Origin: an uncultured Bacteroidia bacterium
GTDB lineage: Bacteria > Bacteroidota > Bacteroidia > NS11-12g > UBA9320
Direction of reading: 5' to 3'
Assembly: GCA_943846675.1 (NCBI GenBank)
Contig: OX044357.1
Location: forward strand, 1,546,010-1,610,009
Length of the DNA: 64,000 nucleotides
In this document: one piece after another, positions 3,410 through 54,208 of the stretch
Position numbering within the stretch: position 1 is the first letter of the stretch
Layout: each line of letters opens with the position of its first letter
Translations under genes and position numbers: made by a program
Notes under the pieces: generated by a model
The model's input: only the letters and a program-made list of their open reading frames with translations
Database searches by the model: none
What the model was told of the DNA's origin: nothing

Positions 3410-6394
3410 ATGCAAAAAACGTACTTATTTATTTTACTAGCATCTTTATGCTTTCTTTCCTTTGAAACACAAGCAACCGTAATATTTGTAGACTATAGTT
3501 CTTCGGGTACTAATACTGGTGCATCCTGGACCAATGCTTACACGAGTCTTCAGTCTGCTGTTACTAATGCGGTTAGCGGAGATGAAGTATGGGTAGCCGC
3601 AGGCACATACATTCCATCTGCATATCCAGTAGGGCGAACATCTACAGATATTCGAGAGTATTCTTTTTACCTTGAGTCTGGTGTGGAGTACTACGGAGGA
3701 TTTGCAGGTACAGAAACACTAAGATCTCAACGCGATTATGCGAATAATGCCACCGTTTTGAGTGGAAATATTACAGGTAACAACTGTTACCATGTTTTGG
3801 TATCGGCTAATGAAAGCTCTGTGGTTTTAGACGGTTTTACCGTTACCGCTGGATATGCCAACGGTGGTACAAACGCAACAATAAATGGTCAATCAGGTTT
3901 TTGGACTAATAATGGAGGTGGTGTTTTCACGATTAACACCACGATGACCGTAGAGAATTGTATCATATCCAATAACACAGCTGGTTATGGTGGTGCAATT
4001 CGAGGTGTAGGGGGTACCACAACACTTACAAATTGTACACTTACTGGTAATACTGGGACTGCTCATGCGGGTGCAATAGATATGGTTGGTACTCTAGTTG
4101 TAAGTGGCTGCACATTTACCAGTAACAAGACAGCTACTAGCAGCAACGGAAATGGGGGAGCAATAAAAATTTCTGGGGGTGTTGCTACAATTTCAAATAC
4201 ATCATTTATAAGTAATGTAGGAAGAATCGGTGGTGCCATACATCATTACAGTTCGCAACTAACCATATCAACGTCTACCTTTAGTAATAATTCCGCAACA
4301 AATCATGGTGGAGCTTTATATGCTAGTCATACAGCATTTACTGTAACGAAGTGTGTTTTTGATGGAAATACTGCTACAAACAATGGTGGGGGTATCTCCA
4401 CAGGTTGGGGAGCTACTATGACTCTCAATAACTCTGTATTTAGTGAAAACACCTCTGGGTCAAGTGGAGGAGCTATCTCCAATGATATGATTAATGGTTC
4501 AGCAATCAATTGTACGTTTTATGCGAATACTGCAGCTGTTAGGGGTGGTGCTTATTCTTCAGTTTCAAACAGTATCAATGGCAAGAACTGTGTGTTTTTT
4601 GGAAACAAAAAGGGTACAAGCACGAACGTATCAGGTGCAGATACGTATGGTGGATCATTCACCTATTCTTTAACGCAAAGCAATAGCAACTTCAGCAGTG
4701 GAACAGGTATTGTAAACAATCAAGACCCATTATTCATCAATGCAAGTGACCCAGATGGAGCAGATAATGTATGGATGACGGCAGATGATGGATTAAGTTT
4801 TTTTAGCAATTCTCCTGCTTACGGTGTAGGAACAAGCTCAGGCGCTCCTTCTACCGATATTACGGGTGCTTCACGAGCGTCATCTCCATCTATGGGAGCC
4901 TATGAAGGTTTTTCTTACACGCGGTATTTAGTAGATATTGACGCTACGGGCACCGGTGCAGGTACAAGTTGGACTAATGCCTATACAGGGCTTCAAGACG
5001 CTATAGATGCATCCTCAGTAGGGGATGAAATATGGGTCGCAGAAGGTACATATATACCCAATGTAATTCCTCAATTTCAGGTTACATCTACCGACAATAG
5101 ACATAAAACATTTGCCATAAACAAAAATATAGCAATTTATGGTGGATTTGATGGTACTGAATCCGTCCTATCGCAAAGGGACGCTAAATTAAACATTACT
5201 GTATTAAGCGGAGATCTTGGAACTATTGGTACAGTATCAGATAATTGCTTCCATGTTGTGATGACTGCTAATTTAAATTCAACTGCAATCATCGATGGAT
5301 TTACAATTCAAGATGGTAATGCAAACGGAGGTAACACAACAGATCAGTATGGTGGTAGAAACTTTGCAAGAGAACTAGGAGGGGGAATTGCTAGCAATTT
5401 TTCTTCACCTACTCTTTCCAATCTAATCATCAAAAACAATAGGGCAAAAATTGGAGCAGGTGTCAGTAACAGCGTTTCCAGTTCATATCTTATTAATTTA
5501 ACTTTCGTAGACAATATTGCTAATGAAAAAGGAGGGGGAGTAGCTAATATAACTACTGGATCTCCAAGTATTATTAATTGTGTTTTTAGTGGGAACCTAG
5601 CTGATGATTTTGGTGGTGGTATATACTCTGAAAACTCACCTACAATAACCAATTGCACCTTTTTCAATAACAAAGCAACTACCACTTCACAAGGCGGTGG
5701 TGGTGTATATGCAATAAATGCAGGAACTACTACGGTATCAAATTGTATATTTTTTGGAAATAAAATAGGCTCATCTACGACTAATGTTGGTTCAGATATT
5801 AAAAACGGTACTGGTCATACAACCACTGTAGACTACAGTATGGTACAACTTGCTAGCGGAAGTTATACCTCTGGAAACACCAATGCCCTCACATCTGCAA
5901 CCAGTATGGTCTATAACCAAGACCCATTATTCAGCGGTCATGGTGGTCCAGATGGAGTAGATAATGTATGGATGACTGAGGATGACGGACTCAGATTAAA
6001 TAGTAATAGCCCTGCAGTAGATGCGGGACTTAGTAGTGCCATAAGTGGGTATTCTACAGATATTGTAGGTACTGCTCGTGTGGTGAATACTAACGTAAAT
6101 ATGGGAGCTTATGAGGTTCTTTGTTCTGAAACGACTAAAACAATAACAGCAAATGTATGCGATAGCTACACCTCTCCAAGTGGAAAGACTTGGATAACAA
6201 GCAACACGTATTCAGATACGATAGCAAACACTGCGGGTTGTGATAGTGTTATCACGGTGAACCTTACGGTTCGCGATAAGACGACTGAAACGATAACAGC
6301 AAATGTATGCGATAGCTATACCTCTCCAAGTGGAAAAACTTGGACAACAAGCAACACGTATTCAGATACCATTCCAAACGACTGCGGGTTGTGA
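3410..6394 (+). CDS. N-terminal ORF piece of the frameshifted giant beta-helix protein (signal peptide, two Pmp-like beta-helix blocks, 2-Cys modules)
   Basis: 994-aa ORF. It carries repeated GGAI / CTFTSN / CVFDGN / SVFSEN motifs and two copies of the block-ending motif NQDPLF...DGxDNVWMTxDDGL...MGAYE. It terminates at CGL*, where the paralog reads on as NTAGCDS. Confidence 0.7.
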   Translation: MQKTYLFILLASLCFLSFETQATVIFVDYSSSGTNTGASWTNAYTSLQSAVTNAVSGDEVWVAAGTYIPSAYPVGRTSTDIREYSFYLESGVEYYGGFAGTETLRSQRDYANNATVLSGNITGNNCYHVLVSANESSVVLDGFTVTAGYANGGTNATINGQSGFWTNNGGGVFTINTTMTVENCIISNNTAGYGGAIRGVGGTTTLTNCTLTGNTGTAHAGAIDMVGTLVVSGCTFTSNKTATSSNGNGGAIKISGGVATISNTSFISNVGRIGGAIHHYSSQLTISTSTFSNNSATNHGGALYASHTAFTVTKCVFDGNTATNNGGGISTGWGATMTLNNSVFSENTSGSSGGAISNDMINGSAINCTFYANTAAVRGGAYSSVSNSINGKNCVFFGNKKGTSTNVSGADTYGGSFTYSLTQSNSNFSSGTGIVNNQDPLFINASDPDGADNVWMTADDGLSFFSNSPAYGVGTSSGAPSTDITGASRASSPSMGAYEGFSYTRYLVDIDATGTGAGTSWTNAYTGLQDAIDASSVGDEIWVAEGTYIPNVIPQFQVTSTDNRHKTFAINKNIAIYGGFDGTESVLSQRDAKLNITVLSGDLGTIGTVSDNCFHVVMTANLNSTAIIDGFTIQDGNANGGNTTDQYGGRNFARELGGGIASNFSSPTLSNLIIKNNRAKIGAGVSNSVSSSYLINLTFVDNIANEKGGGVANITTGSPSIINCVFSGNLADDFGGGIYSENSPTITNCTFFNNKATTTSQGGGGVYAINAGTTTVSNCIFFGNKIGSSTTNVGSDIKNGTGHTTTVDYSMVQLASGSYTSGNTNALTSATSMVYNQDPLFSGHGGPDGVDNVWMTEDDGLRLNSNSPAVDAGLSSAISGYSTDIVGTARVVNTNVNMGAYEVLCSETTKTITANVCDSYTSPSGKTWITSNTYSDTIANTAGCDSVITVNLTVRDKTTETITANVCDSYTSPSGKTWTTSNTYSDTIPNDCGL

Positions 6395-19386: not shown

Positions 19387-21015
19387 ATGCAGCATGTAGA
19401 TCAACAATTGGCAGTCTTTGCCAAAGGGCAAAAGAACAACAAAGGGAAGGCCATTACAGCGGTCATGTATACCCGTGTATCGACCAAGGAACAGGCCGAT
19501 AACAATCAGAGTCTCTTTACGCAAGCAAAGCACATCAAGCAATTTGCAATGAACAATGATTTGCAGATAATAGGGGAATTTGGTGGGACTTATGAAAGCG
19601 CCAAGAGTGATGAACGGGTTCAGTTCAAACAAATGATTGCCTTTGTCAAAAGACATAAGGTAGATGCCATTGTGGTATACTCGATGGATCGCTTTTCAAG
19701 AAGTGGTCCCAATGCTATTTACATTTCAGAACAACTCAGAAAGATAGGTACTGAGATTATATCTGTAACCCAACCTGTAGACGCCTCTACAGCTGCTGGG
19801 GAATTGCAACAGGGAATTTACTTTATGTTCTCACAATATGAGAATCAGCAAAGGCGCTTAAAGTCCATGGCGGGCACCCGTGAAAAGCTATTACAAGGAC
19901 ATTGGGTTACCAAACCACCCTTAGGGTACAAGAAGATCACAGAAGGTGGACAAAAGAAAATAGTCATCACAAAAGAAGGTAGATTGCTGGCAGCAGCATT
20001 TAGAAGAAAGATTAAGTACAACTACGAATTTACTGAAATTAGTAAGTGGCTGTCAACAAGAGGTCTAAAGGTGAGTCATAAAAGATTATCTGAGTTATGT
20101 AGAAACGTATTTTATTGCGGTTTCATGGCCCATCAGGCATTAAATGGAGAGATTGTAAAGGGCAATCATGAAGGACTCATCACACGTAATGAGTTCTTGA
20201 AGCTGAATGGCATGCTTCAAATCAGACCTGCCAAAAAGCCAAAATCAAAAATGTTGGATCATCTACCCTTAAAGAGGCACATGCATTGCTCAAAGTGCAG
20301 CAAACCAATGACGGGTTACTTTGTGCGACCAAAGAAGTTATATTACTACAAGTGCAATACGAAAGGTTGTAAAGTCAATAGAAGTGCTAAGGTGTTAAAC
20401 CGAAACTGGGAACAGACGCTTTCCAATCTTCAGATAGATGCAAAATACGTTACACCCATCCAAGAACAGCTCAAACGAAAGCTCGAAAGCTTAAAAGAAG
20501 ACTCTGGTGATGGGCTAAAACAGTATCGCAGTAACAAAACAAAGGTTGAGAGGAAGATAGAGATGTTGGAAGAACGATTTGTAATAGGAGAAATTACCAA
20601 AGACTTATTTGATAAGTACGCTGCTAAATATAGAGAAGAATTGGTGGCAATATTAGAAGAAATCGACAAATGTGGAATTTCATTATCGAACCCTGATCAG
20701 GTAATCAAGCAGGCCACTGATTTGATGTCTAAACTTCAGAAAACCTGGCAGTTATCAAAATCAACAGAAAGATCAAAGTTGCTTAAAGCGGTCTACCCAA
20801 GCGGAATTTGGCTTGATCCTGAAAATAACAGTTATCGAACTTTTGGTTTGAACCCAGCGGTGCGCTGTATCCTAGATATAACGGGGAAATCCGTAGAAAA
20901 GGAAAAGCGGAATAGTGAAGATAAACTCACATATTCCGCTTTGGTAGCCCCTAGGGGAATCGAACATAGCTTCGTATCATTCGCTGGAGCTAATATACCT
21001 ATTTTAACATTTTAA
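19387..21015 (+). CDS. large serine recombinase (resolvase catalytic domain + recombinase domain + zinc-ribbon)
   Basis: 542 aa. It carries the catalytic motif VMYTRVSTKEQ...SMDRFSRSG (resolvase/invertase N-terminal domain), a long recombinase domain, a Cys-rich zinc ribbon (CSKCSKPMTGYF...YYYKCNTKGC) and a C-terminal coiled-coil. Confidence 0.85.
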   Translation: MQHVDQQLAVFAKGQKNNKGKAITAVMYTRVSTKEQADNNQSLFTQAKHIKQFAMNNDLQIIGEFGGTYESAKSDERVQFKQMIAFVKRHKVDAIVVYSMDRFSRSGPNAIYISEQLRKIGTEIISVTQPVDASTAAGELQQGIYFMFSQYENQQRRLKSMAGTREKLLQGHWVTKPPLGYKKITEGGQKKIVITKEGRLLAAAFRRKIKYNYEFTEISKWLSTRGLKVSHKRLSELCRNVFYCGFMAHQALNGEIVKGNHEGLITRNEFLKLNGMLQIRPAKKPKSKMLDHLPLKRHMHCSKCSKPMTGYFVRPKKLYYYKCNTKGCKVNRSAKVLNRNWEQTLSNLQIDAKYVTPIQEQLKRKLESLKEDSGDGLKQYRSNKTKVERKIEMLEERFVIGEITKDLFDKYAAKYREELVAILEEIDKCGISLSNPDQVIKQATDLMSKLQKTWQLSKSTERSKLLKAVYPSGIWLDPENNSYRTFGLNPAVRCILDITGKSVEKEKRNSEDKLTYSALVAPRGIEHSFVSFAGANIPILTF

Positions 21016-47246: not shown

Positions 47247-47373
47247 AATGAGTGAGGTGTTTAGGCGTTCAATTGAGCCTTGCCGTACAAATCACTTTAT
47301 TGTATTTTACCGTCGAACATAAACGCTCATTCTATATACACGAAACGAGGAGGGCCAGTGTAGTTTATCAAAA

Positions 47374-47593
47374 ATGACAGATGCAAGGAAAATTCACAGG
47401 TCTCTGGCTATTAAACCGTTAGTCGACTACTTCAATGGTATTATGCCGTTACAAGCTCCAAAGGAACGGTTAAAATTCTTGCCAATGGAATGGAAGCACC
47501 CGAAGCAAATAGAGAGTTATTTGTATTAGAAAAAATAAAGGGTAGCTGGAAAATTGCACGATACATGTTTAATAAGACAGAACCCAAAGGATA
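47374..47593 (+). pseudogene. frameshifted remnant of an NTF2-like (SnoaL/DUF4440-like) protein
   Basis: Frame A reads MTDARKIHRSLAIKPLVDYFNGIMPLQAPKERLKF... Frame B reads ...VKILANGMEAPEANRELFVLEKIKGSWKIARYMFNKTEPKG*. The tail is typical of NTF2-like proteins, and the frames switch near 47470. Confidence 0.35.
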
Positions 47594-47751
47594 GTGCTAT
47601 CACCCTTACAAGTGATATGTATGATTGTTTGTTGACCTCGTATGGCTATGTTGTAAACGACTGGAGAGCCAAATAAGTAGGATAGAGAGTATTGGTAAAA
47701 TTGGTAACAACGAATTATAGCTTGCACGTATTACTTATTTGATTTGTTCGA

Positions 47752-47833
47752 AGGCATGCACCATGGCAAAAGAACCAAACGACCATTGCCTAAACTAAAA
47801 TTGATACTACTTCATACGTGCATGCCTTTTTTA
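47752..47833 (+). promoter_or_regulatory. long-range hairpin + T6 (terminator or attenuator-like element) 37 nt upstream of the class D beta-lactamase gene
   Basis: aggcatgcac (47752..47761) pairs perfectly with gtgcatgcct (47818..47827) across a 56-nt loop and is followed by tttttt. Confidence 0.45.
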
Positions 47834-47869
47834 GGAAACTTGGTTAAATTGTAGCCACATACAGCACAT

Positions 47870-48781
47870 ATGAATCCAACTTCTTTTTTGACTTTCGCTA
47901 TTGTCTTATTTACAACAGTTACGGCTTGCAATTTTAAAAGCAGAGAAGAACGCAAGAGTGCCCAAATGGAAGAACTGTCCGTCCTTGAGAATAAAATAGA
48001 AGAACTGGAGGATAGAATAGGGAATAAGACAACAAAACGAATCGATGTCAAAGGGTTTGGCGATATTATCGACAGCAACGACCTGAGCGGGTCAATCGTT
48101 TTTTTTGAAGAAAGTACGAATACCTGGTTTAGTAACGATTTTGATTGGGCAGACAAGAGGAGACTACCTGCTTCCACGTTTAAAATTGTTAATTCTATTA
48201 TTGGACTGGAAACCAACGTAGTCTCCGACACCGGCATACAGTTTAAATGGGATAGCAGTCAAGATCGACGAAAAATGTGGCGTAAAGACTTTGACTTACA
48301 TGGGGCCTTTCATGCGTCTTGTTTACCTTGTTATCAAGAGCTGGCAACAAACGTTGGTTTGGAAACTATGCAGCAATATGTGGATCGACTATCCTATGGC
48401 GATATGATTGTGGATTCCAGTTCATTGGATAATTTCTGGATAAAGGGTGAATCAGGTGTTAGTCAGGTCGAACAAATCGACTTCTTGCAGCGGTTATATA
48501 ATCACCAACTACCGGTCAGTGTTTCTACAATAGATAAAATGAAAAAGCTAATGGTTATTGATTCCAATGCCAACTACAAATTAAGTGGCAAAACGGGTTG
48601 GGGTTTTCACAATGACCAAGATAATGGCTGGTTTGTGGGGTACATAGAAAAGGACGACAATACGTATTTCTTTGCCACAAATGTGACGCCAAAAGAAACG
48701 TTTAATATGTCTCTGTTTGCCAAGATGCGCAGCCTTGTGACCATGCAGGCATTTGAACTTTTAGGCACATTGCCTGACTAA
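47870..48781 (+). CDS. class D (OXA-type) beta-lactamase, lipoprotein-like N-terminus
   Basis: 303 aa with the class D motifs PASTFKI (S-x-x-K), YGD (YGN equivalent), SGKTGWG (KTG) and FWIKG (W-x-x-G). It aligns in order to OXA-10-like enzymes (WD..KR...W..D.......A..YQ.LA...GLE.M...V.R..YG...). Confidence 0.8.
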   Translation: MNPTSFLTFAIVLFTTVTACNFKSREERKSAQMEELSVLENKIEELEDRIGNKTTKRIDVKGFGDIIDSNDLSGSIVFFEESTNTWFSNDFDWADKRRLPASTFKIVNSIIGLETNVVSDTGIQFKWDSSQDRRKMWRKDFDLHGAFHASCLPCYQELATNVGLETMQQYVDRLSYGDMIVDSSSLDNFWIKGESGVSQVEQIDFLQRLYNHQLPVSVSTIDKMKKLMVIDSNANYKLSGKTGWGFHNDQDNGWFVGYIEKDDNTYFFATNVTPKETFNMSLFAKMRSLVTMQAFELLGTLPD

Positions 48782-48958
48782 TTTCAGGATCTTATGGTTA
48801 TTCTGGCTAGGTCCAACTTTATTCAAGTAATAGAATGCTCGGATGATGCTCACTTTAGCTCTATCCAGTCTATTTTCTATACTCTATGTTCTTTTTTCTG
48901 TTGTACGGAGCAGAATAGCTGCCTACAATTTCCATTGGCTAGTAGCAAATTCTTATAT

Positions 48959-51253: not shown

Positions 51254-51271
51254 ATTTTCTATTTTAAAAAA

Positions 51272-51655
51272 AGGACAAACTTGTAAGCCGGGTTCTGTAC
51301 CATGACCAAGGTCACGATGCCTATCATTTATCTAGTCCTAATGTTGCCATCAGGATCAATCAACCTACCCTCCTTAGTTGCCGAAGCATTGAGCGGGCAG
51401 CTCTTATAACTAAGGTTTACTTGGTTTTTCAACATGCAAGGTTTGTACCGTTTCGATGTTGCCACCGAAAAGCGTGGTCTCTTACACCACGTTTTCACCA
51501 TTCCCTGTCCTAAAACAGGATGTTATTTTCTGCTACACTCGCTGTCTTGCAGCCTTTCAACTGCAATCCCCCGAAGTTATCGGGGTGCATTGCCCTGCGT
51601 TGCCCGGACTTTCCTCGTAATCACAAAAGTGAGCACGCGATAGACCCGTTTGTCC
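51272..51655 (-). ncRNA. rnpB: RNase P RNA (bacterial type A)
   Basis: The minus strand reads ...GAGGAAAGTCCGGGCAACGCAGGGCAATGCACCCCGATAAC... (P4 5' strand) and ...ACAGAACCCGGCTTACAAG (P4 3' strand). A P1 helix pairs GGACAAAC at 51655 with GTTTGTCC at 51272, and a T-run follows the 3' end. The tracked ORF 51434..51643 lies inside it. Confidence 0.8.
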
Positions 51656-51695
51656 AAGACAAAAGTAAATAAAATATGTACAAAATAATTGACGG

Positions 51696-52831: not shown

Positions 52832-54208
52832 ATGACGTTGATAAAATCGATATCCGGATTTAGAGGAACTATAGGGGGAAAAGTAGGAGAAAACCTGACA
52901 CCTATTGATACCGTAAAGTTTGCTGCAGCTTTTGCGACTTGGTTAAAAGACCAAGACAAAGGCAACACTATTGTTATTGGTAGGGATGCCAGAATTAGTG
53001 GTTCTATGATTTCGAGTTTGGTAACCAACACCTTAATTGGTATGGGGATGAATGTGATTGACTTAGGGTTAAGCACAACACCTACGGTGGAAATGGCAGT
53101 GCCTAGTTTAAAGGCAGCCGCAGGCATAATACTTACAGCAAGTCATAATCCGGCACAATGGAACGCCTTAAAATTGCTGAATAGTAAAGGGGAATTTATT
53201 AGCGCGGAAGATGGAAAAGAGTTGCTTCAAATTGCTGAAGGGGATGACATGACTTTTGCTGGTGTCAATGAGCTAGGCACTGTCATAGAAGACACTACAT
53301 GGATTGAAAAACATATTGACGCTATTCTTGAATGCAGCGAGGTGGATCAGGATGCGATTGCAGCAGCAAATTTCAGCGTGGTTGTAGACGGTGTAAACAG
53401 TACCGGTGGCATCGCGATTCCAGCGGTTCTTAAACGTTTAGGCGTAACCGAAATTACAGAACTGTATTGTGATCCAACGGGCGATTTCCCGCACAACCCT
53501 GAACCACTAGCCGAAAATTTAACGAAAATATCGGAAGTGGTAAAGTCGAAGAAGGCTGACCTAGGCATCGTTGTAGATCCAGATGTAGATAGGTTGTGTT
53601 TTGTTATGGAAAATGGAGACTTGTTTGGAGAGGAGTATACCTTGGTTGCAGTCTCTGATTATTTGTTGGGTATTCAACCAGGCAACACGGTTTCCAATTT
53701 GTCGAGTACCAGAGCACTGCGAGATGTCACTGAAAAACATGGAGGCAAATACACAGCCAGTGCTGTGGGCGAGGTGAATGTGGTTGATAAAATGAAAGAA
53801 ACACAAGCTGTGATTGGTGGAGAAGGAAACGGCGGCGTGATTTGGCCAAAGCTTCATTACGGTAGAGATGCCCTTGCTGGTGTCGCTTTGTTTTTAAGTC
53901 ACCTTGCTCAGAAAAAGTGTTCCATGACCGAATTGAAAGCTTCCTATCCTTTATATGAAATGTCAAAGAACAAAATAGAACTTACTCCTGACATGAATAT
54001 TCCTGATATATTGAAACAAATGGGGGAGAAGTATGCCCACGAAGACACCAACACCGTAGACGGATTGAAGATAGAGTTTGCTGAAGAGTGGGTGCATCTT
54101 AGGGGCTCAAACACAGAGCCAATTATTCGTATTTATGCAGAAAGCAAATCTGCTCAGAAAGCCCACGAATTGACCGAAAGGATAAAAGCGGAAGTATTAG
54201 CACCGTAG
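52832..54208 (+). CDS. glmM: phosphoglucosamine mutase (alpha-D-phosphohexomutase family)
   Basis: 458 aa with the active-site loop TASHNP, metal-binding DPDVDR and the Bacteroidota GlmM-like N-terminus MTLIKSISGFRGTIGG. Confidence 0.8.
   Translation: MTLIKSISGFRGTIGGKVGENLTPIDTVKFAAAFATWLKDQDKGNTIVIGRDARISGSMISSLVTNTLIGMGMNVIDLGLSTTPTVEMAVPSLKAAAGIILTASHNPAQWNALKLLNSKGEFISAEDGKELLQIAEGDDMTFAGVNELGTVIEDTTWIEKHIDAILECSEVDQDAIAAANFSVVVDGVNSTGGIAIPAVLKRLGVTEITELYCDPTGDFPHNPEPLAENLTKISEVVKSKKADLGIVVDPDVDRLCFVMENGDLFGEEYTLVAVSDYLLGIQPGNTVSNLSSTRALRDVTEKHGGKYTASAVGEVNVVDKMKETQAVIGGEGNGGVIWPKLHYGRDALAGVALFLSHLAQKKCSMTELKASYPLYEMSKNKIELTPDMNIPDILKQMGEKYAHEDTNTVDGLKIEFAEEWVHLRGSNTEPIIRIYAESKSAQKAHELTERIKAEVLAP

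What the first reader, a model, noticed from the sequence alone, without database searches (positions are those of the whole stretch)
47374..48781. Chromosomal class D (OXA-like) beta-lactamase preceded by a pseudogene and a large hairpin-T6 element
The bla gene has all the class D active-site motifs (STFK, YG[DN], KTG, WxxG) plus an unusual ~70-aa N-terminal extension with a lipobox and a coiled-coil segment. About 40 nt upstream is a 10-bp perfect stem enclosing a 56-nt loop followed by T6 (47752..47833). This is either the terminator of upstream transcription or an attenuator controlling bla expression. Further upstream lies a frameshifted NTF2-like gene remnant. The locus is relevant for intrinsic beta-lactam resistance.
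Basis: partly seen in the sequence, partly recalled or inferred. Interest (0 to 1): 0.5.

Follow-up and report, generated by a model that had tools for sequence, protein, structure and literature searches.

The report
Conserved RNA element upstream of beta-lactamase
An ordinary chromosomal class D (OXA-type) beta-lactamase gene of an uncultured Bacteroidia bacterium is preceded by an undescribed, evolutionarily conserved ~85-nt structured RNA with its own promoter and terminator, which may control the resistance gene.

Summary
The 303-aa ORF (47870-48781) is a lipoprotein-type class D beta-lactamase with every catalytic motif and an OXA fold. It belongs to no named OXA family and scores 9 bits below NCBI's generic class D cutoff. 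The "pseudogene" is real, but it is a 5'-truncated remnant (the last 49 codons of a SnoaL_3 gene) left by a deletion, not a frameshift. The hairpin is the interesting part. On its own it is statistically unremarkable. However, the same element lies directly upstream of the orthologous bla gene in nine loci (bla identity 50-78%). It keeps a 12-14 bp stem through compensatory and G-U changes that fit only the + strand, an invariant C/A-rich loop motif (GGCAnAnnAACCAAAC) and a U-tract. A conserved Bacteroidota-type promoter box ends 4 nt before the stem. The element is not the upstream gene's terminator, not a repeat, and matches no Rfam family. It is absent upstream of bla in 78 other loci from other Bacteroidota. 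The best reading is a bla-linked leader or small RNA unit ending in its own closing-stem terminator. Whether it attenuates bla in cis or acts in trans is unresolved.

The parts
47445..47594 (+). 5'-truncated remnant of a SnoaL_3/DUF4440 (NTF2-like) gene: the last 49 codons plus the stop
   Evidence: It is 83-84% identical in DNA to L001 5031-5179, the 3' end of an intact 170-aa gene. The intact L001 protein hits PF13474 SnoaL_3 at E 1e-8. There is no similarity upstream of 47441 apart from a 37-nt match to the spacer downstream of the L001 GNAT gene, which marks a deletion of about 1.9 kb.
47657..47690 (.). Distal conserved DNA block (ACGnyTGGAGAaCCA ... AGAGA) at a fixed 82-85 nt upstream of the RNA element. 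It may be a regulator-binding site.
   Evidence: It is present at the same spacing in 8 of 8 loci that reach that far. RNAalifold finds no conserved pairing across this block and P1. Its function is not established.
47718..47746 (+). Predicted promoter P1 of the RNA element: TAgcTTGC, about 5-8 nt, then TTACTTATTTGATTTG. A TTTG ends 3-4 nt before the stem.
   Evidence: The columns T-A..T-T-G-C and TTACTTA.TTGA are invariant across 9 loci. It resembles the Bacteroidota -7 box TAnnTTTG (own knowledge). As an internal calibration, the RNase P RNA gene in this window has TACTTTTG ending 3 nt before the RNA start. The transcription start site itself is inferred.
47750..47832 (+). Conserved structured RNA element of about 83 nt: 5' arm 47750-47761, 56-nt C/A-rich loop 47762-47817, 3' arm 47818-47829, U-tract 47827-47832. 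The loop holds the invariant GGCAAAAGAACCAAAC at 47765-47780 and AAACTAAAA at 47792-47800.
   Evidence: Covariance-model hits of 73-101 bits on the + strand in 9 loci, against 27 bits or less on the reverse strand. On the 13-pair helix, 94.9% of cells are paired, against 24-67% when the partner is slid. Three pairs show compensatory changes. Eight pairs vary on one side, all through G-U and none through A-C. No Rfam family matches.
47845..47852 (+). Conserved box TAAATTGT (TAnnTTG invariant in 9 loci), 12 nt after the U-tract and 17 nt before the ATG. It may be the -7 box of a bla promoter of its own (P2).
   Evidence: Invariant columns T226, A227, T230, T231 and G232 in alignment A4. Perfect TAnnTTTG boxes lie 3-16 nt before several other ATGs in this window, so the position is plausible for a promoter. 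Its function is inferred.
47870..48781 (+). Class D (OXA-like) beta-lactamase gene, predicted lipoprotein precursor of 303 aa. The Cys21 codon is 47930-47932.
   Evidence: Pfam PF00905 at E 3e-34. NCBIfam bla_class_D_main scores 241.2 bits against a cutoff of 250. Best solved structure by sequence is 6nhs_A at E 1e-46, followed by OXA-10 and OXA-48. The AF2 model has pLDDT 83.8, and Foldseek gives TM about 0.9 to OXA-232, OXA-48, OXA-10 and FUS-1. The catalytic residues are invariant in 25 relatives.

Best explanation
The locus is a vertically inherited chromosomal class D beta-lactamase gene for a lipoprotein-anchored enzyme. It carries a lineage-specific, bla-linked RNA unit immediately upstream.

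Proposed mechanism:
- A conserved promoter (P1, 47718-47746) starts transcription at or within a few nt of the base of a 12-14 bp helix.
- The helix closes a largely unstructured, C/A-rich loop of about 56-65 nt with an invariant 16-nt motif.
- The 3' arm of the helix runs directly into a U-tract. The closing helix is therefore also an intrinsic terminator and yields an RNA of about 85 nt.
- The unit ends 15-39 nt before the bla ATG and overlaps the region where the -33 element of a second, weaker promoter-like box (P2) would lie. I therefore propose it acts in cis. Termination at the closing helix sets how much P1 transcription reads into bla (attenuation or insulation). A trans factor that recognises the invariant loop modulates this.

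Shown: conservation; + strand RNA pairing with covariation; the U-tract; linkage to bla; absence from Rfam and from other Bacteroidota bla loci.

Inferred: the transcription start site, termination itself, any effect on bla, and the identity of the loop-binding factor.

The SnoaL_3 fragment upstream is deletion debris and is not part of the unit.
For: 1) The element lies directly upstream of bla orthologs, in the same orientation, in 9 loci (8 distinct lineages, bla identity 50-78%): the window, L001, L006, L007/8, L009/10/11, L012, L097, L098 and L099.
2) Helix: 94.9% of cells are paired, against 24-67% for slid controls. Compensatory changes occur at 3 pairs (C-G/A-U to U-A/G-C, and A-U to G-C). 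All one-sided changes are G-U type on the + strand. The reverse-strand CM score is about 26 bits against about 100 bits.
3) At least four U residues follow the 3' arm in 9 of 9 loci, and the loop motif GGCAnAnnAACCAAAC is invariant.
4) A promoter-like block is invariant immediately 5' of the stem, with no RNA structure in it. It resembles the promoter of the RNase P RNA gene in the same window.
5) It is not the upstream terminator. L001 has a separate canonical terminator at 5674-5708. Upstream genes differ between loci, and L097 has a different downstream gene.
6) The stretch from P1 to the ATG is 85.5% identical between the window and L001, against 79-81% for the flanking coding sequences.
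7) It is single-copy and lineage-restricted. No other convincing copy occurs in the window or in 78 other Bacteroidota bla loci, and the loop pattern finds only bla-linked copies in JGI metagenomes.
Against: - There are no transcript data, so the start site, termination and read-through are all inferred.
- A 56-nt loop is atypical for an efficient intrinsic terminator, and the consensus terminator scan does not call it.
- No alternative antiterminator pairing is conserved. No consistent inner helix is conserved either: the partner of GGCA differs between loci.
- The loop shows no significant complementarity to the bla 5' region.
- The conserved TAnnTTG box between the U-tract and the ATG suggests bla can be transcribed independently. 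That weakens a strict attenuator model and favours a separate sRNA gene.
- There are only 9 sequences and about 2 independent compensatory events, so the covariation statistics are modest.
Confidence: 0.5

Rival explanations
1. An independent trans-acting small RNA gene with its own promoter and terminator happens to be syntenic with bla. The C/A-rich invariant loop is a seed that pairs with G/U-rich targets elsewhere. bla is transcribed from its own promoter (the TAnnTTG box) and is not regulated by the element.
For: The unit looks discrete: a promoter box ends 4 nt before the stem, the 5' and 3' ends pair, and a U-tract follows. A conserved -7-like box lies between the U-tract and the ATG, at a distance typical of this genome. 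The single-stranded invariant loop is typical of a seed region. No antiterminator is conserved.
Against: The element is adjacent to bla in 9 of 9 loci while upstream genes vary, and in L097 the downstream gene differs too. It is absent where the bla subclade ends (L100 and 78 other loci). The seed complement GTTTGGTT is not enriched in the window and none of its other copies lies at a gene start.
Confidence: 0.3
2. The hairpin with T6 is simply the intrinsic terminator of the upstream transcription unit. It insulates bla from upstream read-through.
For: A G+C-rich stem is followed by T6 downstream of the upstream genes in the same orientation.
Against: L001 has a separate canonical terminator right after its upstream gene, about 170 nt before the element. 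In the window the upstream gene is a dead remnant, yet the element is intact. Upstream genes are unrelated between loci. A terminator needs neither an invariant 16-nt loop motif nor an invariant promoter-like block right in front of it. A 56-nt loop is unlike ordinary terminators.
Confidence: 0.05
3. The element acts at the DNA level. It could be an inverted-repeat operator pair bound by a dimeric regulator, a miniature transposable element, or a recombination site.
For: It is a perfect 11-bp inverted repeat, each arm containing the palindrome GCATGC. A fixed-distance conserved DNA block lies upstream. Symmetric operators can also change both arms together.
Against: All one-sided arm changes are G-T on the + strand (14 cells at 8 pairs) and none are A-C. 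That is expected for RNA pairing and not for DNA symmetry. A U-tract always follows the 3' arm. The element is single-copy: no second convincing copy occurs in the window, in about 630 kb of related loci, or in the JGI metagenome scan. No target-site duplication is visible.
Confidence: 0.05
4. The protein is not a functional beta-lactamase. It would instead be a low-activity or non-hydrolytic class D-fold protein (penicillin-binding or sensor-like, as with YbxI-type enzymes), so the locus would not confer resistance.
For: It scores just below the NCBIfam class D equivalog cutoff, 241.2 against 250 bits. It departs from the usual motifs: YGD instead of YGN, S-C-L instead of S-x-V, and a CxxC pair at the SxV motif that is absent from the best-matching solved OXA structures whose alignments were shown. 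Activity was not tested.
Against: Every residue known to be catalytic in class D enzymes is present and invariant in 25 relatives: Ser and Lys of STFK, Ser of SxV, Tyr-Gly, the Trp after the omega loop, KTG, and the C-terminal Arg. The fold matches OXA-48 and OXA-10 at TM about 0.9. There is no BlaR1 N-terminal transducer domain, and the BlaR1 model scores 159 bits against a cutoff of 400.
Confidence: 0.15

Closest known systems
E. coli ampC attenuator (hairpin plus U-run between the ampC promoter and the coding region; the promoter lies inside frdD)
   Same: A G+C-rich hairpin followed by Us sits between a promoter and a chromosomal beta-lactamase start codon. In E. coli this hairpin limits bla transcription, and attenuator mutations raise expression (PMC11796351; the older work of Jaurin, Grundstrom and Normark is cited from my own knowledge).
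   Different: The E. coli hairpin is a short, ordinary terminator that also ends the upstream frd operon. Here the helix closes a 56-nt loop with an invariant motif. It is not the upstream terminator. It is linked to a class D rather than a class C gene, and a second promoter-like box lies downstream of it. No function has been shown.
Class D (OXA) beta-lactamases, e.g. OXA-10, OXA-48 and the structure 6nhs_A
   Same: It shares the fold (TM about 0.9), the STFK, SxV-position Ser, YG, W and KTG motifs and the C-terminal Arg. Lipoprotein-type signal peptides are also reported for some OXA enzymes of Acinetobacter (own knowledge).
   Different: By HMM score it is far below the threshold of every named OXA family (166 bits or less against cutoffs of 390-625). 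It is 9 bits below the generic class D cutoff. It has a longer charged tether after the lipobox, and S-C-L-P-C-Y-Q instead of S-A-[ILV]-P-V-Y-Q.
Terminator-ended small RNAs and leader-derived sRNAs of bacteria, including Bacteroides sRNAs such as GibS (own knowledge)
   Same: It is a short transcript unit with a sigma-A-type Bacteroidota promoter box, a single-stranded conserved region and a stem plus U-tract at the 3' end.
   Different: The terminator helix here is formed by the extreme 5' and 3' ends and encloses the whole RNA. There is no sequence or Rfam relationship to any described family. No target is known.
Riboswitch-type expression platforms in which a P1 helix closes the sensor
   Same: A long-range helix closes a conserved core, is followed by a U-tract and lies upstream of the regulated gene.
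   Different: The enclosed core has no conserved internal helices. It is C/A-rich and predicted to be unstructured, unlike a ligand aptamer. No alternative pairing is conserved.

Membership tests
Class D beta-lactamase (OXA superfamily) | Penicillin-binding/transpeptidase-like fold of class D type | tested here: met
   PF00905 at E 3e-34. The AF2 model has pLDDT 83.8 and Foldseek TM about 0.9 to OXA-232, OXA-48, OXA-10 and FUS-1.
Class D beta-lactamase (OXA superfamily) | Active-site motifs: S-x-x-K, S-x-V, Y/F-G-N, the Trp that stabilises the carbamylated Lys, K-T/S-G | tested here: met
   Present as S102TFK105, S150-C-L, Y176-G-D, W190 and K241TG. Ser, Lys, Ser, Tyr-Gly, Trp and KTG are invariant in 25 relatives. 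The third residues of SxV and YGN deviate (L and D).
Class D beta-lactamase (OXA superfamily) | Score at or above the curated NCBIfam equivalog cutoff (NF012161) | tested here: not met
   241.2 bits against a cutoff of 250. This is a narrow miss. Close relatives are nevertheless named class D beta-lactamase by NCBI and JGI.
Class D beta-lactamase (OXA superfamily) | Hydrolysis of beta-lactams (bicarbonate/CO2-dependent) | not testable with these tools
   Needs enzyme assays and MIC measurements.
Named OXA families (OXA-10, -23, -48, -50, -58, -1089 and others) | Score above the family-specific HMM cutoff | tested here: not met
   The best is OXA-1089-like at 166 bits against 580. All others score 159 bits or less against cutoffs of 390-625.
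BlaR1/MecR1 beta-lactam sensor-transducer | N-terminal multi-pass membrane and zinc-protease (M56) domain fused to the class D-like sensor domain | tested here: not met
   The protein is 303 aa and has only a signal peptide, a lipobox and a linker before the class D domain. blaR1_generic scores 159 bits against a cutoff of 400 and matches only model positions 358-570.
Intrinsic (Rho-independent) terminator | G+C-rich stem immediately followed by a U-tract on the transcribed strand | tested here: met
   A 12-14 bp stem and at least four Us in 9 of 9 loci.
Intrinsic (Rho-independent) terminator | Short hairpin loop (about 3-8 nt) | tested here: not met
   The loop is 56 nt (52-65 nt in relatives). 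The consensus scan does not call it.
Transcription attenuator of a beta-lactamase gene (E. coli ampC type) | Terminator hairpin located between the gene's promoter and its start codon | tested here: inconclusive
   A conserved promoter-like block lies upstream and the ATG lies 15-39 nt downstream. No start site has been mapped, and a second promoter-like box lies downstream of the hairpin.
Transcription attenuator of a beta-lactamase gene (E. coli ampC type) | Measured reduction of downstream transcription | not testable with these tools
   Needs transcript mapping or reporter assays.
Riboswitch / any Rfam family | Match to a curated covariance model, or a conserved multi-helix aptamer | tested here: not met
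   No Rfam hit at gathering threshold. The only hit at E of 10 or less is snR82 at 9.2 bits. RNAalifold finds only the closing helix.
MITE / repeated element | Multiple dispersed copies and target-site duplication | tested here: not met
   One copy in 64 kb. All copies found elsewhere are bla-linked. No duplication flanks the arms.
SnoaL_3/DUF4440 (NTF2-like) gene | Full-length domain of about 110-120 residues | tested here: not met
   Only the C-terminal 49 codons remain. The fragment alone gives no Pfam hit, while the intact L001 ortholog does. It is therefore a gene remnant.

The most novel reading that the evidence does not exclude
The element is a new class of cis-acting RNA regulator of a beta-lactamase. 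A promoter-proximal terminator helix encloses an invariant C/A-rich platform. A cell-envelope or beta-lactam-responsive factor (a protein or an RNA) binds this platform to switch between termination and read-through into bla. The fixed-distance upstream GGAGA/AGAGA block may be the binding site of a response regulator that drives P1. This would be the first RNA-based control system described for a class D enzyme.
Probability: 0.25. Interest if true: 0.65.

Novelty: new variant of a known kind. Interest (0 to 1): 0.45.

Why it matters
The enzyme itself adds one more environmental Bacteroidota class D beta-lactamase to a very large clade. The upstream RNA is the new part. It has no Rfam counterpart, shows covariation, and is inherited together with bla across a lineage in which the protein has diverged to about 50% identity. 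If it controls bla, it would be a previously undescribed RNA-based way of regulating a class D beta-lactamase. It would also be a compact, testable model of a terminator formed by a long-range closing helix in Bacteroidota, a phylum whose transcription signals and regulatory RNAs are still poorly charted. If it is a trans-acting sRNA, it is a new family with an unusually well-defined 16-nt seed.

Tried and rejected
- Rfam gave no match, either at gathering threshold on the whole window or at E-value threshold on 47550-47900.
- The consensus terminator scan does not call the hairpin.
- Single-sequence statistics are not significant on their own.
- Covariance models R1 and R2 found no homolog upstream of bla in 78 loci of other Bacteroidota, nor in L100. 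A weak window hit at 20203-20293 lies inside a 542-aa ORF and is taken as chance.
- The JGI metagenome scan with the loop pattern returned 6 loci. Two are true and are duplicates of L001 and L009. Four are chance matches inside unrelated sequence.
- A leader peptide was considered. An 11-codon ORF (MAKEPNDHCLN) in the window's loop is not conserved, because L007 and L009 have no start codon there.
- Conserved inner helices were sought. GGCA pairs with UGCC in some loci and with UGCUU in others, so no consistent second helix exists.
- Pairing between the loop and the bla 5' region is no better than for shuffled loops.
- The seed complement GTTTGGTT is at chance frequency in the window and none of its other copies lies at a gene start.
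- A sigma-54 promoter (GG-N10-GC) for the neighbouring NtrC-type regulator was looked for by eye and not found.
- RNA structure in the 100 nt upstream of the stem: none.
- The DNA for P0005's contig could not be fetched.
- Literature searches found nothing linking an RNA element to Bacteroidota class D genes.
Full report
OBSERVATION.
The ORF at 47870-48781 (+) encodes 303 aa. Its motifs are STFK (102-105), S-C-L at the SxV position (150-152), YGD (176-178), FWIKG (W190) and KTG (241-243). A lipobox V-T-A-C21 follows a hydrophobic N-terminus, and that Cys is conserved in at least 90% of 25 relatives. The inverted repeat has arms at 47751-47761 and 47818-47828. It is 11 bp perfect, or 12 with a G-U pair, and encloses 56 nt. 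T6 at 47827-47832 follows, and the ATG is 37 nt further on.

THE PROTEIN.
- It is a class D beta-lactamase homologue. Pfam PF00905 scores E 3e-34.
- NCBIfam bla_class_D_main is by far the best model, but it scores 241.2 bits against a curated cutoff of 250. Every named OXA family model is far below its threshold, the best being OXA-1089-like at 166 against 580. The BlaR1 model matches only through its sensor domain, at 159 against 400.
- The closest solved structures by sequence are 6nhs_A (E 1e-46) and the OXA-10 and OXA-48 groups.
- An AlphaFold2 model built on 25 relatives has pLDDT 83.8. It superposes on OXA-232, OXA-48, OXA-10 and FUS-1 at TM about 0.9 normalised to the target.
- A database search returns 3774 relatives at E of 1e-20 or better. 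The best 120 are 260-300-aa proteins (one of 415 aa); those that carry a source name are from Bacteroidota (Flavobacteriales, Cytophagales, Saprospiraceae, Bacteroidales and others).
- In an alignment of 25, all catalytic residues and a C-terminal Arg (R287) are invariant.
- The 'about 70-aa N-terminal extension' is overstated. Query residue 71 corresponds to residue 36 of the 266-aa OXA-10 chain. The excess is therefore about 35 aa: the lipoprotein signal peptide plus a charged tether whose length and sequence vary freely among relatives.
- The heptad-like EELSVLENKIEELEDRI stretch is shared only with the 78% ortholog and is modelled at pLDDT 52-73.
- Activity cannot be tested here. The architecture excludes a BlaR1-type sensor.

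THE GENOMIC SETTING.
- The window is an ENA metagenome contig.
- The downstream gene order is bla, then Sua5/TsaC (-), an NtrC-type regulator (-), an Exo_endo_phos protein (-) and phosphoglucomutase. This order is kept in relatives whose bla is only 52-78% identical. An RNase P RNA gene lies 2.5 kb away. The gene is therefore chromosomal and vertically inherited in this lineage.
- The nearest named genome record is 'uncultured Bacteroidia bacterium'.

THE PSEUDOGENE.
- In the closest relative (L001, bla 78% identical) four genes lie between the GNAT gene and bla: a 135-aa protein, an NmrA-like protein, a 170-aa SnoaL_3/DUF4440 protein and a 147-aa protein.
- In the window this interval has shrunk to about 620 bp.
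- Bases 47441-47590 are 84% identical to the 3' end of the L001 SnoaL_3 gene.
- Bases 47419-47455 match the spacer just downstream of the L001 GNAT gene, which marks the deletion junction.
- Bases 47445-47594 encode, in one open frame, the last 49 residues plus stop of that protein (AVTSSKGTVKILAN...FNKTEPKG*). Nothing upstream is similar.
- The intact ortholog is SnoaL_3.
- It is thus a real NTF2-like remnant, truncated by deletion rather than frameshifted. The 51-aa ORF at 47374 is a spurious frame.

THE HAIRPIN: SINGLE SEQUENCE.
Taken alone it is not remarkable. The fold z-score is -1.68. A consensus terminator scan misses it because of the long loop. Perfect 11-bp inverted repeats with loops up to 100 nt occur twice in the window against 2.4 expected, although only 0.04 are expected with a T5 tail.

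THE HAIRPIN: COMPARATIVE EVIDENCE.
- The stretch from 47718 to the ATG aligns to L001 at 85.5% identity. That is higher than bla (80.9%), GNAT (79.2%) or Sua5 (79.4%).
- The same element is found immediately upstream of bla in loci for P0003 (62%), P0004 (56%), P0006, P0007, P0008, P0009 (52%) and P0010 (50%). That makes nine loci and eight distinct sequence lineages.
- On the nine-sequence alignment a 13-pair helix has 94.9% of cells paired, against 24-67% when the partner is slid by 1-3 columns.
- Three pairs carry compensatory double changes: C-G/A-U in the window and L001 against U-A/G-C elsewhere, and A-U against G-C in three loci.
- Eight further pairs vary on one side only, always through G-U and never through A-C. 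This asymmetry fits an RNA made from the + strand, the strand of bla. So do the much lower reverse-strand covariance-model scores, about 26 against about 100 bits.
- At least four Us follow the 3' arm in all nine loci.
- The loop is C/A-rich and nearly free of G. It contains the invariant motif GGCAnAnnAACCAAAC and a second motif, AAAC-A-AA.
- No second helix is consistently conserved. The invariant GGCA finds a UGCC partner in some loci and a UGCUU partner in others.

FLANKING SIGNALS.
- Immediately 5' of the stem lies an invariant block, TA..TTGC then 5-8 nt then TTACTTA.TTGA(TTTG). A TTTG ends 3-4 nt before the helix in all loci, including L097 where a 6-nt deletion brings the first TTTG into that position.
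- This resembles the Bacteroidota -7 box TAnnTTTG (own knowledge). It also resembles the promoter of the RNase P RNA gene in this same window: TTTG, 13 nt, then TACTTTTG ending 3 nt before the RNA.
- The 100 nt upstream of the stem show no conserved RNA pairing, as expected for DNA signals.
- Further upstream, a block ACGyTyGGAGAaCCA...AGAGAc sits at a fixed 82-85 nt from the element in 8 of 8 loci. Its role is unknown. A regulator site is my guess.
- Between the U-tract and the ATG a box TAnnTTG is invariant (TAAATTGT at 47845-47852). It lies 4-21 nt before the start codon.
- Perfect TAnnTTTG boxes lie 3-16 nt before several other start codons in the window. This box could therefore be a -7 element of a bla promoter of its own, in which case its -33 region would overlap the U-tract.

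WHAT IT IS NOT.
- It is not the terminator of the upstream gene. L001 has a separate canonical terminator (GACCTG...CAGGTC followed by T8) directly after its upstream gene and about 170 nt before the element. Upstream genes differ among loci. In the window the upstream gene is dead.
- It is not a repeat or a MITE. There is one copy in the window. There are none in about 630 kb of loci around other Bacteroidota bla genes. A scan of JGI metagenomes with the loop pattern returned only bla-linked copies plus four chance matches.
- It is not a described RNA family.
- It is not a leader-peptide attenuator, because the small ORF in the loop is not conserved.

MECHANISM.
- Shown: a conserved + strand RNA helix with a U-tract, an invariant single-stranded loop motif, a conserved promoter-like block, strict linkage to bla, and restriction to one sub-lineage. 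That sub-lineage is also the one whose bla has the long tether.
- Inferred: P1 fires at the base of the helix, and the closing helix with its U-tract terminates transcription. This gives an RNA of about 85 nt. The fraction of polymerases that read through, or interference with the overlapping P2, sets bla expression. A factor that binds the invariant loop tunes this.
- I give about 0.5 to a cis-acting leader, attenuator or insulator. I give about 0.3 to an independent trans-acting sRNA that merely travels with bla. The rest is spread over the other rivals. The two main models differ only in experiments I cannot run.

COMPARISON WITH KNOWN SYSTEMS.
- The nearest functional analogue is the E. 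coli ampC attenuator, a hairpin plus U-run between the ampC promoter (inside frdD) and the coding region. Mutations in it raise AmpC production (PMC11796351).
- The present element differs in four ways. It has a 56-nt conserved loop. It does not double as the upstream terminator. It belongs to a class D gene. A second promoter-like box follows it.
- It also resembles terminator-ended sRNAs and P1-closed riboswitch platforms in outline. It lacks an aptamer-like core.

NOVELTY AND SCORE.
The enzyme is a new member of a known kind. The RNA is an undescribed family of a familiar general kind (leader or sRNA with an intrinsic terminator) with an unusual geometry. Literature searches found nothing comparable for Bacteroidota class D genes. 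Interest is 0.45. The comparative signal is solid and the hypothesis is cleanly testable. Set against that, the lineage is narrow, the function is unknown and the covariation sample is small.

Noticed in passing
window 48317-48328 (codons C151-L-P-C154 of bla); alignment A1: The whole Bacteroidota class D clade has an invariant S-C-[VL]-P-C-Y-Q where the best-matching solved OXA enzymes have S-A-[ILV]-P-V-Y-Q. This puts a CxxC pair right at the SxV active-site motif. It could be a disulfide or redox feature. It is not explained.
   Followed up: partly
window 47657-47690: A conserved DNA block ACGnyTGGAGAaCCA ... AGAGA lies at a fixed 82-85 nt upstream of the RNA element in 8 of 8 loci. It contains two GAGA-type direct repeats about 22 nt apart and has no RNA structure. 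It may be a transcription-factor site. An NtrC-type regulator gene is conserved two genes downstream, but no sigma-54 promoter was seen.
   Followed up: partly
window 51268-51656 (-), promoter 51660-51684: A bacterial RNase P RNA class A gene scores 229.7 bits. A perfect TACTTTTG box ends 3 nt before the RNA, and a TTTG lies 13 nt upstream of that box. It is useful as a calibration of this organism's promoters.
   Followed up: yes
window-wide, e.g. genes starting at 52832 (+), 39321 (+), 52724 (-), 36137 (-): Perfect TAnnTTTG boxes end only 3-16 nt before several start codons. This suggests that very short or leaderless mRNAs are common in this genome.
   Followed up: no
window 47247-47869 compared with L001 2929-6000: Relative to the closest relative, the window has lost a 135-aa cNMP-binding-like gene, an NmrA-like gene, two thirds of a SnoaL_3 gene and a 147-aa lipoprotein-like gene through two deletions. 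The region upstream of bla is a variable island in all relatives.
   Followed up: partly
window 48782-48958: The bla-Sua5 convergent spacer is 177 nt here but only 19 nt in L001. The consensus scan found no terminator in it.
   Followed up: no
window 47763-47798: A small ORF (ATG GCA AAA GAA ..., MAKEPNDHCLN*) lies inside the RNA loop. L001 has a GTG-initiated counterpart, but L007 and L009 have no start codon there, so it is probably not a leader peptide.
   Followed up: yes
window 47870-47932: The predicted signal peptide (MNPTSFLTFAIVLFTTVTAC) has no positively charged residue in its n-region. The same holds in the 78% ortholog, whereas more distant relatives start with MK or MKK. The residues after the lipobox Cys (NFKSREE; NKINKDE in P0002) loosely resemble Bacteroidota lipoprotein surface-export signals (own knowledge).
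   Followed up: no
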